Made by a program: the position numbers and the translations under genes | The notes under the pieces: generated by a model | Told to the model about the DNA's origin: nothing | Database searches by the model: none | The model's input: the letters and a program-made list of their open reading frames with translations, nothing else | Part shown: positions 2,759-11,614 of the stretch, piece after piece | Position numbering within the stretch: position 1 is the stretch's first letter | Layout of the letters: every line of letters begins with the position of its first letter | Origin: Candidatus Methylomirabilis sp. | Lineage (GTDB): Bacteria > Methylomirabilota > Methylomirabilia > Methylomirabilales > Methylomirabilaceae | Direction: 5' to 3' | DNA length: 12,038 nt | Assembly (NCBI GenBank): GCA_041498975.1 | Contig: JBGQJI010000073.1 | Span: 1-12,038, forward strand

Positions 2759-2853
2759 TGGCGGAGGCGTGTGGGGGTCGAACCCACCAACCCGTTATTA
2801 GCGGGTTCGCTGGTTTTGAAGACCAGGAGGGCCACCGGGCCCATTCCGCCTCC
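2759..2853 (-). tRNA. selC: tRNA-Sec (anticodon UCA), 95 nt with encoded CCA
   Basis: GGAGGCGG AA UGGGCC CGGU GGCCCU C CUGGU CUUCAAA ACCAG C GAACCCG CUAAUAA CGGGUU G GUGGG UUCGACC CCCAC ACGCCUCC G CCA. This gives an 8/5 acceptor/T arrangement, long D stem with 4-nt loop, long variable arm, G discriminator and anticodon at 2817-2819. Confidence 0.97.
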
Positions 2854-4240: not shown

Positions 4241-4474
4241 CTAGGCCCTCCGGCGCAGTTTCTGTCGCTGAGCCCGCTGATTGCCGGCGATCCAGCTCTC
4301 GATCGCCTCTTTCTTGAAGCGCCAGACGTTCCCCAACTTCCAGGCAGGGAGCGTCCCGTCGCGCGCCATCCGGTAGACGGTTGACTTGTTGATCCGGAGG
4401 TAGCGGGCCACCTCCTCGAGGGTCATCACCGTGGGCCGCTGCTCCGTCCGCTGGCCGCTCCGCTTTTGCTCCAT
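4241..4474 (-). CDS. Excisionase-family (HTH_17/MerR-like) helix-turn-helix DNA-binding protein
   Basis: VMTLEEVARYLRINKSTVYRMARDGTLPAWKLGNVWRFKKEAIESWI is the typical family pattern. GGAG SD. Confidence 0.9.
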   Translation of the reverse strand: MEQKRSGQRTEQRPTVMTLEEVARYLRINKSTVYRMARDGTLPAWKLGNVWRFKKEAIESWIAGNQRAQRQKLRRRA

Positions 4475-4573: not shown

Positions 4574-4603
4574 ACTCTAGGCAGGGCTGGTTAGCGTTGT
4601 CAA
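4574..4603 (-). promoter_or_regulatory. Putative sigma70 promoter for the HTH gene (~95-nt leader)
   Basis: TTGACA (4603-4598), 18 nt, TAGAGT (4579-4574), with an A-rich tract upstream. Confidence 0.6.
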
Positions 4604-4686
4604 GCGATTTTATTTTCCTCAAGGAGTTGCGTCGGAGGCGGATGAGAGGATCAACTCTGGGTCCGAATGATTTTTCAGCGCGCCCG

Positions 4687-5034
4687 CTAACCGAACAGCT
4701 TCGCGTAGGTCACGGCGTCGAAACCGACGGCGAGCGTGCGACCCTTCCGCAGCGTCGGGGCCCGGAGGTTACCTGTCGGCCCGAGCAGGAGCCCCAGAAG
4801 CTCAGCATTGTCCGGTCTCTCTTTCCGCAGGTCCAGATGGATCACTTGCCGCCTTTTGGTGACGTAAATCTCGTCCACTTCCCGGACTAGCGCAAGCGCC
4901 TCTTTCGCTCTGAGGGTCGTCTTCTTCGCATCGACCTGGAGGGCGGTCTCAACGCTGTGTGTCACAAGAAACTCTTGCGTCTTGGCGCAGGTCTTTCACC
5001 CAGGCCGGTGATACCTCCAGTCAACACGTGTCAT
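4687..5034 (-). CDS. ArsC/Spx-like thioredoxin-fold selenoprotein (115 aa, Sec13 in UKTC)
   Basis: GGAGG SD and ATG at 5034 give MTRVDWRYHRPG-TGA(4998-4996)-KTCAKTQEFL, continuing in frame into track ORF 4687-4965 (...GNLRAPTLRKGRTLAVGF). The TGA sits at the first position of a CxxC-type motif. SECIS-like hairpin downstream, and selB and selC nearby. Confidence 0.88.
4963..4979 (-). promoter_or_regulatory. Putative bacterial SECIS apical hairpin
   Basis: CGCAAGA-GUU-UCUUGUG stem-loop. The loop starts with G at nt +24 after the UGA, consistent with the bacterial SECIS model. Confidence 0.6.
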
Positions 5035-5152
5035 GAACGTTGCCTCCCATCATGCGAGGTCAAGAGGGATTGCCGTCACGCCGCGCCAACGGCCGGAAGA
5101 TGGCCTCGTCATCGTCGCCGGTGAGGACCGGGCTTGCCGTGCAGGAGTCCTC

Positions 5153-6256
5153 TTACCAGTGCCGGCTTTCTCCGCGCTTGAGGGCCCAGACATTGCCGAG
5201 ATCGATCTTGCGCCTGCGCGCGGCCTTTCGCATCTGCCCTGGGGGCTCATCCAGCGGCTCTTCCGCCAGCTCGAAGGTGCCCCAGTGAATGCCCAGCAGC
5301 GTTTTGCCGCGCAGGTCCATAAACGCCTGCACAGCCTCTTCCGGCGTGGTGTGTACGCCTTTCATAAGATACGCGGGCTTGTACGCGCCAATGGGCACGG
5401 CGGCCAGATCGAACGGGCCGAGCGCCTCCCCGATCTGCTTGAAGCCATCGAAGTAGCCGCTATCCCCACCCGCATACAGGCGTTTCGAGCGGCCTGCGAC
5501 CACCCACGATGCCCACAGCCGCCTGTTCGTGTCTGAAAGGTTCCGGCCGCTGAAGTGCTGGGCCGGGACGCAGACCAGGCGCAGGCCGCGATGCTCATAC
5601 GTCTGCCACCAGTCCAGCTCCTGGACGCGGGTCATCCCGTTCTCCGCAAACCATGCCTTGAGCCCCAAGGGGACCACGAAGAGCGGATCGTATGTCTGCG
5701 CCAACCGCTTGACCGTGCCCAGGTCCAGGTGATCGTAGTGGTCGTGAGAGATCAGGACCAGGTGAATGGAAGGCAGGTCTTCGAATCGCATCCCAGGAGC
5801 GTTGAGCCGCCGCGCCCCCAGCCAGGAGACGGGGCCGGCCCGATCCCCCCAGTGCGGGTCGGTCAACAGGTTGATGCCGTCAAGCTGAACCAGCAGCGTG
5901 GAGTGGCCGACCCACGTCACCGTGGCGTCGTTGGTGTTCTCGCGGAGCTCCCGGCCACCATTAGCCTCTCGAGGCAGATCGAAGCTTCGTGGCGCAAGAA
6001 GGTTGACCCACAGTCGGCCCGCGACATACTTGGCGCGCACCAACCCGGCGGGGCGCGTGAAGGCCGGGTCAGGGTTGCGGAAGCCACCCTCCACATGATG
6101 GGCGGGCCGCCCGAGCAGCGGCTCCTTCCCGATCGGGGCGCAGGCGAGGAAAAGGAAGGGCAGAGCAAACGCAAGAGATCGTTGCCGAAATTTCCGAGAT
6201 GAGTTCAGCGTTCCCTGTCCTCCTTGATGCTCGGCCGGGGCGCAGTACATGGTCAT
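5153..6256 (-). CDS. MBL-fold metallo-hydrolase (NAPE-PLD/RomA-like), probable lipoprotein; start uncertain
   Basis: Motifs TWVGHST, LLTDP, ISHDHYDHLD, PAQHFSGR, GGDSGY, PIGAY and IHWGTF. Lipobox-like FLAC. Start is ATG 6256/6250 or CTG 6208 behind AAGGAGG. Confidence 0.9.
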   Translation of the reverse strand: MTMYCAPAEHQGGQGTLNSSRKFRQRSLAFALPFLFLACAPIGKEPLLGRPAHHVEGGFRNPDPAFTRPAGLVRAKYVAGRLWVNLLAPRSFDLPREANGGRELRENTNDATVTWVGHSTLLVQLDGINLLTDPHWGDRAGPVSWLGARRLNAPGMRFEDLPSIHLVLISHDHYDHLDLGTVKRLAQTYDPLFVVPLGLKAWFAENGMTRVQELDWWQTYEHRGLRLVCVPAQHFSGRNLSDTNRRLWASWVVAGRSKRLYAGGDSGYFDGFKQIGEALGPFDLAAVPIGAYKPAYLMKGVHTTPEEAVQAFMDLRGKTLLGIHWGTFELAEEPLDEPPGQMRKAARRRKIDLGNVWALKRGESRHW

Positions 6257-9396: not shown

Positions 9397-11310
9397 TCAC
9401 GCGTACGGAACCCGCTCGTCTCCCTGCCGACGGGTCAGCTTCACACTATCGAAATGCTCCAAGAACGGGATGGCAAACTTCCGACTCACGCCCAGGAGGT
9501 CTTTGAATCCCGGGACCGTGATCGTGGCGTGGCGCTTGAAGTGGTCGAGGAGCATCCCCTGCGCACGCTCATAATGCTCGCGGTGAAGATACAGGTTATC
9601 TTTGACCTTGATCACCGTTCCCTCATCGACAAGGCGATGAAAGAGCGTAACTCCAACCTTGCCACTGGCACCCGCCTGTGCAAGCGCCACCTCCAAATCC
9701 GGCGGCTGAAAGCCCGCCGTCCGGTAGATCGTTTCCAGCCGCACCTTTGCGATCTGCTCGTCGGCGGAGAGGGTGGCTTGATGCAGGAAATGCCGAACCT
9801 TCTCCCGGTCGATGGCGACGCGCTTCGTTTCCACCAGGCCTTGCAACAGGTGGGCGAAAAGGGCCGCCCCGACCTGAGGAAGCTTGCTCCGAAGCTCCTC
9901 CTTCGGCAGCCCATCCTTGAGGGGCTCTTTCCGGTGGAACTCCTCAAGGCGTGAAACGATCTCCGCCGCAAGGCGATCGTAGCTGGTCCGGTGGACGTAC
10001 CCGAGCTCGCCCTTCGCTCCCAACGGAACGGCCGTGCCGGCCTCGATGAGGCGCGTGAGCTCGCCCTTGAGCGTGGTCTCATCGAGGCTGGCCGATGCCC
10101 TGAGCGCGTCCAGAGAGACCGGCGCGGGACCGGCTTGCAGCAGCAGCCGCTCTAGCTGCTGTCCCGATGTGCCGGTCTGCAGGACCTTGAGATGTTCCAG
10201 CAATAGCGCCTTTGACCGCCGCCGGACAGGCGGGGTCGGGTCGAGGATGCTCCCGCCCCCGATCGTCAGGGCAGGCGAATAGCTTCGGATGACGTACCGG
10301 TCTCCGGCCAGGGCAGTCGCCGGAGCCTCGAGCCGCAGGTGCGCCAAGGATTCCTCGCCGGGGTTGAGCTCTTCCCGATCGAGCAGCACGACCCGGGCCA
10401 GCACCTCGCTTGTCCCCAGGTGGAACCGGACCCTTGCCCGGTTCCGCAAGGCACGAGGGGCGTCTTTCAGGAGCTCCAGCGAGACATCGAAGGCCGTGGC
10501 GGACTTGAGCGTGTCAGGGAGCGCCAGGAGATCGCCTCGATCGAGCCGATCCACCTCCAGCCCAGGCAGGTTGACTGCGGTCCGCTGTCCTGCCCAGGCC
10601 TGCTCCACCGTCCGGCCGTGGACCTGAAGGCGGCGGACGCGTGAATGCAGCTCCCGAGGCAGGACGATCACATCGTCCCCGACCTTCACCGTCCCGGACC
10701 AGAGGGTGCCGGTGACCACCGTGCCGAAGCCCTTCATGGTAAACACCCGATCGATCGGGAGCCGGAAGATCCCATCGTGGCGCTTCGGTTCGACCGCCTC
10801 GGCCACCACCCGGAGGGCCGCCCGCAATTCCTGCAGCCCCTGCCCGGTGACGGGGGAGACCGGGATCACCGGCGCCCCCTCGAGAAACGTCCCGGCCAGG
10901 AACCCTTCCAAATCGGCGCGCACCATCTCCAGCCAATCGGGCTCGACGAGATCGACCTTCGTCAGCGCGACCACGCCCCGCTTGACCTGAAGCAACTCGC
11001 AGATATGGAGGTGCTCCCGCGTCTGCGGCATCACCCCCTCGTCGGCGCCGATGACGAGCACGACCAGGTCGATCCCTCCGACGCCCGCCAGCATGGTCTT
11101 GACGAACCGTTCATGCCCGGGGACATCGACGATCCCGAGGTGGAGGTCGTCGGAAAGGGCCAGATTGGCGAAGCCCAACTCGATGGAGATCCCCCGCTCC
11201 TTCTCCTCCTTCAGCCGGTCGGTGTCGATGCCGGTGAGCGCCTTGACGAGCGAGGTCTTTCCATGATCGATGTGGCCGGCGGTCCCAACGATGATATACT
11301 TCATCGCCAT
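9397..11310 (-). CDS. selB: Selenocysteine-specific translation elongation factor SelB (~637 aa)
   Basis: Motifs [37 protein letters not shown] and TKVD, plus the C-terminal winged helix [13 protein letters not shown]...TRRQGDER. True start is ATG 11310 or 11304, not the track's 11565. Confidence 0.98.
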
Positions 11311-11316
11311 AGAGGG

Positions 11317-11345
11317 ATCGTAGCATAGGGGCCGAATGGCGGCAA
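11317..11345 (-). promoter_or_regulatory. Putative selB promoter giving a leaderless mRNA
   Basis: TTGCCG (11345-11340), 17 nt, TACGAT (11322-11317) with an extended TG, then 6 nt to the ATG. No SD present. Confidence 0.6.
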
Positions 11346-11447
11346 GGTTGAAGTCCCTTGGGGATTTGTCAACAAACGTGCGAGAGTTAGAACGCGTTAA
11401 TACGCTGGCGTCGCCACGGAGGGGACTGAAAAGGGGACTGGAAAAGC

Positions 11448-11476
11448 TTGACAGGGTGGGAGGGAGGTGACATGCT
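11448..11476 (+). promoter_or_regulatory. Putative sigma70 promoter divergent from selB
   Basis: TTGACA (11448-11453), 17 nt, CATGCT (11471-11476) with an extended TG. Confidence 0.55.
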
Positions 11477-11482
11477 GCCCCC

Positions 11483-11614
11483 GCATAGGTGATCGTGATG
11501 GGTCCGGGGTGAACACAGCACTTCTGCCACCCGCTGCAGTCTGCTTGGCGCATTATTTCATTCATAGCAACGCCCTCTTAGGTTGAACTCGTCCTAGAGG
11601 GCGTTGATTTTTTT
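11483..11614 (+). ncRNA. Candidate ~130-nt small RNA or attenuated leader
   Basis: Bounded by a predicted promoter and a strong intrinsic terminator. Internal GGGUG...CACCC hairpin. No convincing ORF. Confidence 0.45.
11568..11614 (+). terminator. Rho-independent terminator
   Basis: CAACGCCCTCTTAGG (11568-11582) / CCTAGAGGGCGTTG (11593-11606): 14-bp stem with one bulge, followed by A and T7. Confidence 0.8.

What the first reader, a model, noticed from the sequence alone, without database searches (positions are those of the whole stretch)
4687..5034. Hidden selenoprotein: ArsC/Spx-like protein with UxxC, truncated by standard ORF calling
Seen: a strong SD and ATG, 12 codons, an in-frame TGA followed by K-T-C, and an open frame to 4687. 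A G-loop hairpin lies 17-33 nt after the UGA. Known: UGA aligned to a redox Cys, together with SECIS, SelB and tRNA-Sec, defines bacterial selenoproteins, and ArsC-like selenoproteins have been predicted before. Inference: this is a 115-aa Sec redox protein of unknown substrate, lying between selC and selB.
Basis: partly seen in the sequence, partly recalled or inferred. Interest (0 to 1): 0.75.

Follow-up and report, generated by a model that had tools for sequence, protein, structure and literature searches.

The report
Known ArsC/Spx-fold selenoprotein, truncated by annotation
This small bacterial gene has an internal UGA stop codon that is very likely read as selenocysteine, giving a 115-residue protein that is probably a thiol-redox enzyme; it belongs to an already catalogued family, so the find mainly corrects an annotation.

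Summary
Observation confirmed. Window 5034-4687 (minus strand) has a Shine-Dalgarno, ATG, 12 codons, TGA, then an open frame. Read as Sec it is a 115-aa UxxC protein scoring 134.9 bits on NCBIfam NF041106 'ArsC family (seleno)protein' (cut-off 85). Of 80 related loci, 76 have TGA and 4 Cys at that codon. A hairpin at +17..+33 keeps G at +24 in 77 of 77 Sec genes and 0 of 4 Cys genes, with compensatory changes. The genome has selA, selB, selC and selD. The family is catalogued in print, and this scan noted it before on other DNA (24 findings). Lying between selC and selB is not conserved. The predicted fold is a glutaredoxin core with an alpha/beta insert. Two arsenate-binding arginines of ArsC and Spx's G52 and R92 are not kept, so a selenol/thiol oxidoreductase is likelier than arsenate reductase or Spx. 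Sec incorporation and function are untested. Against: 13 database proteins have Trp there (DNA unseen), and the isolated hairpin is weak (-6.6 kcal/mol).

The parts
4687..5034 (-). Full coding sequence, 115 aa with Sec13; NF041106 ArsC family (seleno)protein
5043..5048 (-). Shine-Dalgarno-like GGGAGG, 8 nt before the ATG
   Evidence: many homologs have a start 12 codons before the UGA
4996..4998 (-). In-frame UGA, codon 13, predicted selenocysteine (first position of UxxC)
   Evidence: TGA in 76 of 80 related loci, Cys in 4
4987..4989 (-). Cys16, predicted resolving cysteine
   Evidence: invariant in 88 of 88
4963..4979 (-). Bacterial SECIS-like hairpin inside the coding sequence (+17..+33; 7 bp, loop GUU, G at +24)
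4765..4926 (-). Inserted subdomain, about residues 37-90: predicted helix, beta-hairpin (55-68), helix, in place of the helical bundle of ArsC/Spx/YffB
   Evidence: AlphaFold2 models; fold searches
4756..4764 (-). R91-A92-P93; P93 aligns to the thioredoxin-fold cis-proline position, A92 replaces Spx R92 (ArsC R94 by indirect mapping)
4687..4965 (-). Truncated 92-aa ORF from GTG that standard callers report; lacks the redox motif
2759..2853 (-). tRNA-Sec gene (selC), anticodon UCA; context, needed for recoding
9397..11565 (-). ORF holding selB (TIGR00475 match 9409-11295); context, needed for recoding

Best explanation
The gene has an in-frame UGA at codon 13 that is very likely decoded as selenocysteine, giving a 115-residue member of the catalogued NF041106 family that likely works as a small selenol/thiol-disulfide oxidoreductase. 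Shown: the frame, the UGA, the hairpin and its conservation, selA/B/C/D in the genome, and family membership by score. Inferred from established Sec biology: SelB with Sec-tRNA binds the G-loop hairpin 23 nt downstream and inserts Sec. Predicted: a glutaredoxin-type core with U13-x-x-C16 at the start of helix 1 and Pro93 in the cis-proline position. Inferred mechanism: the Sec13 selenolate attacks a disulfide or other oxidised sulfur in a partner, Cys16 resolves it to a selenenylsulfide, and a cellular thiol or reductase regenerates it. The family-specific basic alpha/beta insert would select the partner. The substrate is not identified. About 0.97 for Sec recoding, about 0.6 for this function.
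For: Recoding: NF041106 134.9 bits against a cut-off of 85. TGA 76 / Cys 4 of 80 loci, the best 80 of 494 confirmed relatives. All 31 listed matches in 41 genomes of this order, own genome included, hold one TGA. G at +24 in 77 of 77 Sec genes (window included) and 0 of 4 Cys genes; 70 of 77 keep at least 6 of 7 pairs; +23/+27 reads A-U 46, G-C 20, A-C 8, C-U 1, G-U 0; Leu23 is CTT in 72 of 77 against 88 of 920 other Leu codons downstream of the UGA in the same genes. With the paralogous subfamily added: 92.3% of cells paired, 5 of 7 pairs changed on both sides, 0 of 500 shuffles reach the covariation score, slid controls 31-70% paired. selA over cut-off in 42 of 46 TGA-carrying genomes tested. 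TGA is an ordinary stop here: 618 of 1184 long mechanical ORFs, and selB, tatA and the cyclophilin gene. Function: model pLDDT 94; best folds Spx, YffB, ArsC-like, then glutaredoxins and NrdH at rmsd about 2.5 over 73-74 residues; C16 and P93 invariant; no conserved partner gene across lineages.
Against: No protein, 75Se or RNA evidence was obtained. The isolated hairpin (-6.6 kcal/mol) misses the -7.5 limit of the published bSECIS model, although +1..+50 folds at -10.3 with the hairpin formed. The covariation count treats related sequences as independent, and two of its five measures were reached by 34 and 43 of 500 shuffles. Trp stands at the Sec column in 11 of the 64 representatives and 2 of the 9 close homologs that cover it. 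4 of 46 TGA-carrying MAGs showed no selA. The best sequence and Foldseek matches are Spx regulators, not enzymes. The window protein has Arg at position 61, where the other 87 aligned sequences have Gly.
Confidence: 0.6

Rival explanations
1. It is a selenoprotein but works like Spx: a redox switch that binds RNA polymerase or nucleic acid when U13-C16 is oxidised.
For: Best PDB sequence hits are Spx (E 3e-8 with the family profile) and best Foldseek hits are Spx. Positions aligned to Spx DNA-backbone contacts stay basic: 60 is K/R in 88 of 88, 62 is K/R in 73 of 88, R91 invariant; G104 is kept. The proteins are basic (mean K+R-D-E +6.6).
Against: TIGR01617 27.5 bits against 75.05 and Spx NF002459 17.9 against 123. 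The column aligned to Spx G52 is Gly in only 16 of 88, and R92 of the RPI motif is Ala in 88 of 88. The region of Spx helix 4 is predicted as a beta-hairpin, and whole-chain TM-scores to Spx are only about 0.56.
Confidence: 0.2
2. It is a selenium-containing arsenate reductase or other metalloid reductase, as the family name suggests.
For: Pfam ArsC 26 bits against a cut-off of 24. His four residues before the nucleophile, as in ArsC His8, in 82 of 88. No TIGR00014 arsC was found in this 85%-complete genome. Listed as 'arsenate reductase-like' in reviews.
Against: By indirect mapping (ArsC Gly/Cys106 = Spx Gly104 in PMC5593903, plus the alignment), Arg94 is Ala and Arg107 is Phe in 88 of 88, Ser15 is Cys, and the Arg of the HX3CX3R motif is absent. 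None of the recurrent neighbour families that were scanned was an ars gene.
Confidence: 0.07
3. It is a selenoprotein whose U13/C16 pair binds a metal or carries sulfur or selenium rather than cycling redox states.
For: A review notes that Sec may act as a metal ligand in some small Sec families. His9 and Arg10 next to the motif are conserved. Two same-genus genomes carry an extra tRNA-Sec-like gene beside the gene.
Against: A cis-proline-position Pro opposite a CxxC motif is typical of redox-active thioredoxin folds (passage and general knowledge). No linkage to sel genes in most genomes.
Confidence: 0.1
4. The UGA is a true stop, or is read as Trp; the product is the 92-aa fragment or the gene is a pseudogene.
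For: 110 of 119 close database homologs lack the N-terminus, 90 starting at a Met right after the UGA; Trp occurs at the column in 13 database proteins. ATG directly follows the UGA in 16 of 76 loci.
Against: The segment before the UGA is conserved across many phyla. No locus among 80 has TGG. A TGG version of the motif gave 14 matches in the metagenome collection, none a homolog, while the TGA version matches 71 of 76 TGA loci. The loop G is lost exactly where the codon is Cys. TGA is a normal stop in this genome.
Confidence: 0.03

Closest known systems
NCBIfam NF041106 ArsC_rel_Se_1, 'ArsC family (seleno)protein' = 'Arsenate reductase-like protein', UxxC (table row in PMC13188914; COG1393 UxxC row in PMC9312934; 'Arsenate reductase 2', cd03032, UxxC in PMC2398784 is probably the same family)
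   Same: Scores above cut-off over the whole model (profile 1-107 of 107); UxxC motif; one Sec; Cys homologs exist.
   Different: Nothing of substance; this is one more member. It has Arg at the near-invariant Gly61 and a G-U pair that weakens the hairpin.
Spx/MgsR regulators (TIGR01617; PDB 1z3e, 3gfk, 7f75)
   Same: CxxC-type motif at the same place, P93, R91 and G104 kept, basic residues at 60 and 62; best sequence and Foldseek matches.
   Different: Below both family cut-offs; G52 and R92 not kept; predicted beta-hairpin where Spx has helix 4; Sec in place of the first Cys.
Glutaredoxin-coupled arsenate reductase ArsC (TIGR00014) and its UxxS selenoprotein form
   Same: Same superfamily (PF03960); His four residues before the nucleophile.
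   Different: UxxC, not CxxS/UxxS; Arg94 and Arg107 equivalents absent by indirect mapping; no TIGR00014 match.
YffB (PDB 1rw1, 2kok) and glutaredoxin/NrdH-redoxins
   Same: Top structural matches: 1rw1 Z 8.7, rmsd 4.7 over 94 residues; glutaredoxin-like 7c10 Z 7.3, rmsd 2.6 over 74 residues.
   Different: YffB has a helical second domain (and, in the 2kok protein, a single Cys); glutaredoxins lack the roughly 50-residue insert.

Membership tests
NF041106 ArsC family (seleno)protein | HMM score above the curated cut-off | tested here: met
   134.9 bits against 85; 127.2 bits read from DNA through the TGA
NF041106 ArsC family (seleno)protein | UxxC or CxxC motif near the N-terminus | tested here: met
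   U13-K-T-C16; motif listed as UxxC in PMC13188914
Bacterial selenoprotein | In-frame UGA aligned to Cys in homologs | tested here: met
   76 TGA, 4 TGC/TGT of 80 loci; Cys in 50 of 64 representatives that cover the column
Bacterial selenoprotein | bSECIS geometry: 3-9 nt loop, 4-16 bp stem, G in the first two loop positions, 16-37 nt from the UGA | tested here: met
   7 bp, loop GUU, 23 nt; criteria from PMC13188914
Bacterial selenoprotein | bSECIS free energy at or below -7.5 kcal/mol | tested here: inconclusive
   -6.6 for the hairpin alone, -10.3 for +1..+50; mean -8.5 in 76 homologs; bSECISearch itself was not available
Bacterial selenoprotein | selA, selB, selC, selD in the genome, with UGA otherwise a stop | tested here: met
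Bacterial selenoprotein | Selenium shown in the protein | not testable with these tools
   needs 75Se labelling or MS
Spx/MgsR regulators | TIGR01617 or NF002459 above cut-off | tested here: not met
   27.5 against 75.05; 17.9 against 123
Spx/MgsR regulators | Conserved G52 and RPI motif | tested here: not met
   Gly in 16 of 88 at the aligned column (alignment weak in this region); R-A-P in 88 of 88
Spx/MgsR regulators | Binding to the RNA polymerase alpha C-terminal domain | not tested
   no complex prediction or assay was run
Glutaredoxin-coupled arsenate reductase ArsC | Arg60, Arg94, Arg107 triad and HX3CX3R motif | tested here: not met
   Ala92 and Phe105 in 88 of 88 at the positions mapped to Arg94 and Arg107; mapping is indirect through Spx; Arg60 position ambiguous, Lys/Arg
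Glutaredoxin-coupled arsenate reductase ArsC | TIGR00014 match | tested here: not met
   not among hits at E up to 0.01; no match in the genome
Glutaredoxin-coupled arsenate reductase ArsC | Arsenate reductase activity | not testable with these tools
   needs an enzyme assay

The most novel reading that the evidence does not exclude
The NF041106 family is misnamed: it is a selenocysteine-based redox switch with its own basic alpha/beta insert, acting like Spx on RNA polymerase or nucleic acid in Methylomirabilota, Planctomycetota and Acidobacteriota. That would make it a selenium-sensing transcription regulator, with a second Sec paralog subfamily sharing the same SECIS.
Probability: 0.15. Interest if true: 0.6.

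Novelty: new member of a known kind. Interest (0 to 1): 0.15.

Why it matters
It corrects an annotation: the database form of this gene lacks its active-site motif, as do 110 of its 119 closest database homologs. The family is widespread and apparently untested, so its substrate is an open but modest question. What this work adds is a covariation-supported SECIS shared with a more distant paralog subfamily that falls below the NCBIfam cut-off, and a predicted insert unlike the helical domain of ArsC and Spx, which argues against the 'arsenate reductase' label.

Tried and rejected
Linkage to sel genes as a functional clue: rejected. No selA, selB or selD hit and no ARAGORN tRNA-Sec in the flanks of the 80 loci, many on short contigs. 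No selB near the gene in 10 of 11 fetched relative regions; only G014 shares the window's order. In the single-contig genome G008, selB, this gene and selC lie at 73 kb, 392 kb and 1.92 Mb. Neighbourhood as a guide to substrate: neighbours recur only within lineages (sulfatase in 13 loci, TIGR01777 in 7 counting the window, others fewer; fae-mtd cluster in same-genus relatives), and only 19 chosen neighbour proteins were scanned. Sec tracking host machinery: the 4 Cys-version genomes also have selA, so these look like Sec/Cys exchanges inside Sec-using genomes (50 of the 80 genomes tested). Folding energy as proof of the SECIS: not significant for the longer windows. Fold of the insert alone: no clear match (best Z 3.2; no Foldseek hit at E up to 0.001), which shows neither a new fold nor a different one. 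Expression: no RNA holder listed. The TGG scan had no positive control in the same collection, and the DNA of the Trp-bearing database proteins was not seen. PF03960 did not ring in the genome search although the protein passes its cut-off narrowly. No language-model look-alike search result is available for this protein. Literature searches for an experimental test found only computational catalogues; most subscription papers are outside the library and no supplements were read.

Full report
Observation. On the minus strand a GGGAGG at 5048-5043 precedes ATG 5034 by 8 nt; codon 13 is TGA (4998-4996), followed by K-T-C and an open frame to TAG 4689-4687. Table 11 yields only a 92-aa ORF from GTG 4965, and a 92-aa form is what the protein collection holds. 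Contigs of three of four laid sediment runs span 4600-5200 without a differing letter and the fourth covers only part; they may be the same source, so this is weak support against an assembly error. The closest named relatives are Methylomirabilota (NC10) genomes at 69-77% identity, so the host likely belongs there (inference).

Family. With U read as C the protein scores 134.9 bits on NCBIfam NF041106 'ArsC family (seleno)protein' (cut-off 85), 27.5 on TIGR01617 (cut-off 75.05) and 26 on Pfam ArsC (cut-off 24). A 2026 review lists NF041106 as 'Arsenate reductase-like protein, UxxC' and says that the functions of such computationally found selenoproteins are largely uncharacterized (PMC13188914, passages). 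Earlier tables list an arsenate reductase-like UxxC family (PMC9312934), 'Arsenate reductase 2, UxxC' with 42 marine members (PMC2398784) and 'ArsC-like' (PMC1794560); all were seen as passages only, and I did not check that the older entries are the same family. PMC13326102 uses such a protein as a BLAST example (passage); PMC4807772 passages added nothing on this family. This scan has 24 earlier findings with these words in at least 24 genomes; the 8 shown agree. They are unchecked AI notes, not evidence. A look-up by sequence found none.

Is the UGA Sec? In the best 80 of 494 confirmed relatives in genome contigs, the codon is TGA in 76 and TGC/TGT in 4, never TGG; this set leans to close relatives. 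In 41 genomes of the order, own genome included, 27 have a match, 14 over cut-off, and all 31 listed matches hold one TGA. The genome has tRNA-Sec and selB in the window, selA on C23 and selD, itself with one TGA, on C199. Of 50 of the 80 genomes tested, 42 of 46 TGA carriers and all 4 Cys carriers have selA over cut-off. TGA ends 618 of 1184 long mechanical ORFs, so it is not reassigned genome-wide. Against: at the Sec column the best 150 of 848 representatives show 86 gaps, 50 Cys, 11 Trp and 3 others, and the 119 close homologs 110 gaps, 7 Cys and 2 Trp. A TGG version of the motif found 14 metagenome matches, none a homolog, whereas the TGA version matches 71 of the 76 TGA loci. I therefore read the Trp entries as UGA translated with the wrong table (inference; their DNA was not seen).

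SECIS. The hairpin at +17..+33 fits the published geometry. Alone it is weak: -6.6 kcal/mol against a -7.5 limit, pair probability mostly about 0.65, and unremarkable shuffle scores for three of four windows. Conservation carries it. G at +24 is in 77 of 77 Sec genes and 0 of 4 Cys genes. Glu21 is always GAG (56 of 56), Thr19 is ACG in 54 of 55, and Leu23 is CTT in 72 of 77 against 88 of 920 elsewhere. A Glu-to-Gly change at +23 goes with the silent Phe change at +27 in 20 of 20 cases. A second paralog in this genome (C64:8555-8863, 51.4 bits on NF041106, below cut-off) and its relatives keep a hairpin in the same register with two further compensatory pairs. Over 89 distinct sequences 92.3% of cells pair and 5 of 7 pairs change on both sides; 0 of 500 shuffles reach the covariation score and slid controls pair at 31-70%. 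Two pair-type measures were reached by 34 and 43 shuffles, and kin are not independent. Only 38 of 80,849 TGA triplets in the genome show the same pattern. In all four laid runs, short deeper contigs match just 4965-4998 or part of it with 2-3 differences, consistent with this stretch being conserved in other organisms.

Structure and mechanism. The AlphaFold2 model from 88 sequences (pLDDT 94.3, pTM 0.86) has a glutaredoxin-type core with the motif at the start of helix 14-25, and an insert of helix, beta-hairpin (55-68) and helix. Best matches are Spx, YffB and ArsC-like chains at TM about 0.56, and YffB at Z 8.7 (rmsd 4.7 over 94), with glutaredoxins and NrdH at Z about 7, rmsd about 2.5 over 73-74 residues. 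Solved relatives have a helical second domain (PMC3169414, passages). The insert alone folds the same way (pLDDT 82) and finds no clear match, which proves nothing about novelty. Aligned to Spx, R91, P93 and G104 are kept and positions 60 and 62 stay basic, but G52 is not conserved (16 of 88) and R92 is Ala in 88 of 88; these are the conserved Spx features named in PMC8501982 and PMC2801614 (passages). Using the ArsC 106 = Spx 104 equivalence in PMC5593903 (passages), ArsC Arg94 and Arg107 map to invariant Ala92 and Phe105, and Ser15 to Cys16; this mapping is indirect. I therefore commit to a selenol/thiol-disulfide oxidoreductase: Sec13 attacks, Cys16 resolves, and the insert picks the partner (all inferred, 0.6). 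Rivals are an Spx-like redox switch (0.2), a metal or sulfur/selenium carrier (0.1), an arsenate reductase (0.07) and no recoding (0.03).

Context. The gene follows a metallo-beta-lactamase-fold gene and a TIGR01777 gene on the same strand and precedes an excisionase-like HTH gene with its own sigma-70-like promoter match at 4603-4574. selB and selC are often a few kb apart in this order, but this gene lies near selB in only one relative examined (G014, cut by the contig end); in eight of the eleven fetched regions it is instead divergent to a fae gene, in most with mtd next. No neighbour is shared across phyla.

Verdict. A correct call of a real, very probably Sec-containing gene, and a new member of a curated family. 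Interest 0.15. The open question is the family's substrate, for which searches found no experiment in the held library.

Noticed in passing
G000:C64:8555-8863 (-), locus L085: A second ArsC/glutaredoxin-like gene in the same genome with TGA in a UxxC motif and a stronger hairpin in the same register (-11.9 kcal/mol). It scores 51.4 bits on NF041106, below cut-off, and below the UXX-star cut-offs; relatives occur across the order (L099-L110, L112, L113). Probably a second, less well catalogued Sec subfamily.
   Followed up: partly
L118:9326-9423 (+) and L116:7606-7703 (-): A second tRNA-Sec-like gene (RF01852, 57.9 and 54 bits, UCA anticodon, missed by ARAGORN, acceptor stem apparently shorter than in the window's selC) 0.3 and 1 kb upstream of and divergent to the ArsC-like gene in two same-genus genomes that also have an ordinary selC elsewhere.
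   Followed up: partly
L116:7745-8281 (-): A 178-aa DinB_2 ORF, recalled as resembling the N-terminus of EgtB/SenA sulfoxide or selenoxide synthases, lies between the ArsC-like gene and that extra tRNA; it looks truncated.
   Followed up: no
G000:C199:1054-1980 (-), locus L082: selD has one in-frame TGA, so it is likely a selenoprotein too.
   Followed up: no
L010, L022, L023 and others (16 of 76 TGA loci): ATG directly follows the UGA, so gene callers start a 102-aa product there; whether re-initiation gives such a product in cells is unknown.
   Followed up: no
L032, L037, L038, L060: The four Cys versions (three in Obscuribacterales or cyanobacterial records, one unclassified) are in genomes that keep selA; L032 still has a 7-pair stem but lacks the loop G.
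   Followed up: partly
window 4852-4854 (-): Arg61 in the window protein where the other 87 aligned sequences have Gly, at the turn of the predicted hairpin; the same letters are in contigs of three runs.
   Followed up: no
window 4241-4474 (-) and 84-1640: An excisionase-like HTH_17 gene (72 bits on MAD1, cut-off 80) upstream of selC, and downstream of selC two ORFs with no family hit plus an SNase-domain ORF; possibly an integration site at tRNA-Sec.
   Followed up: no
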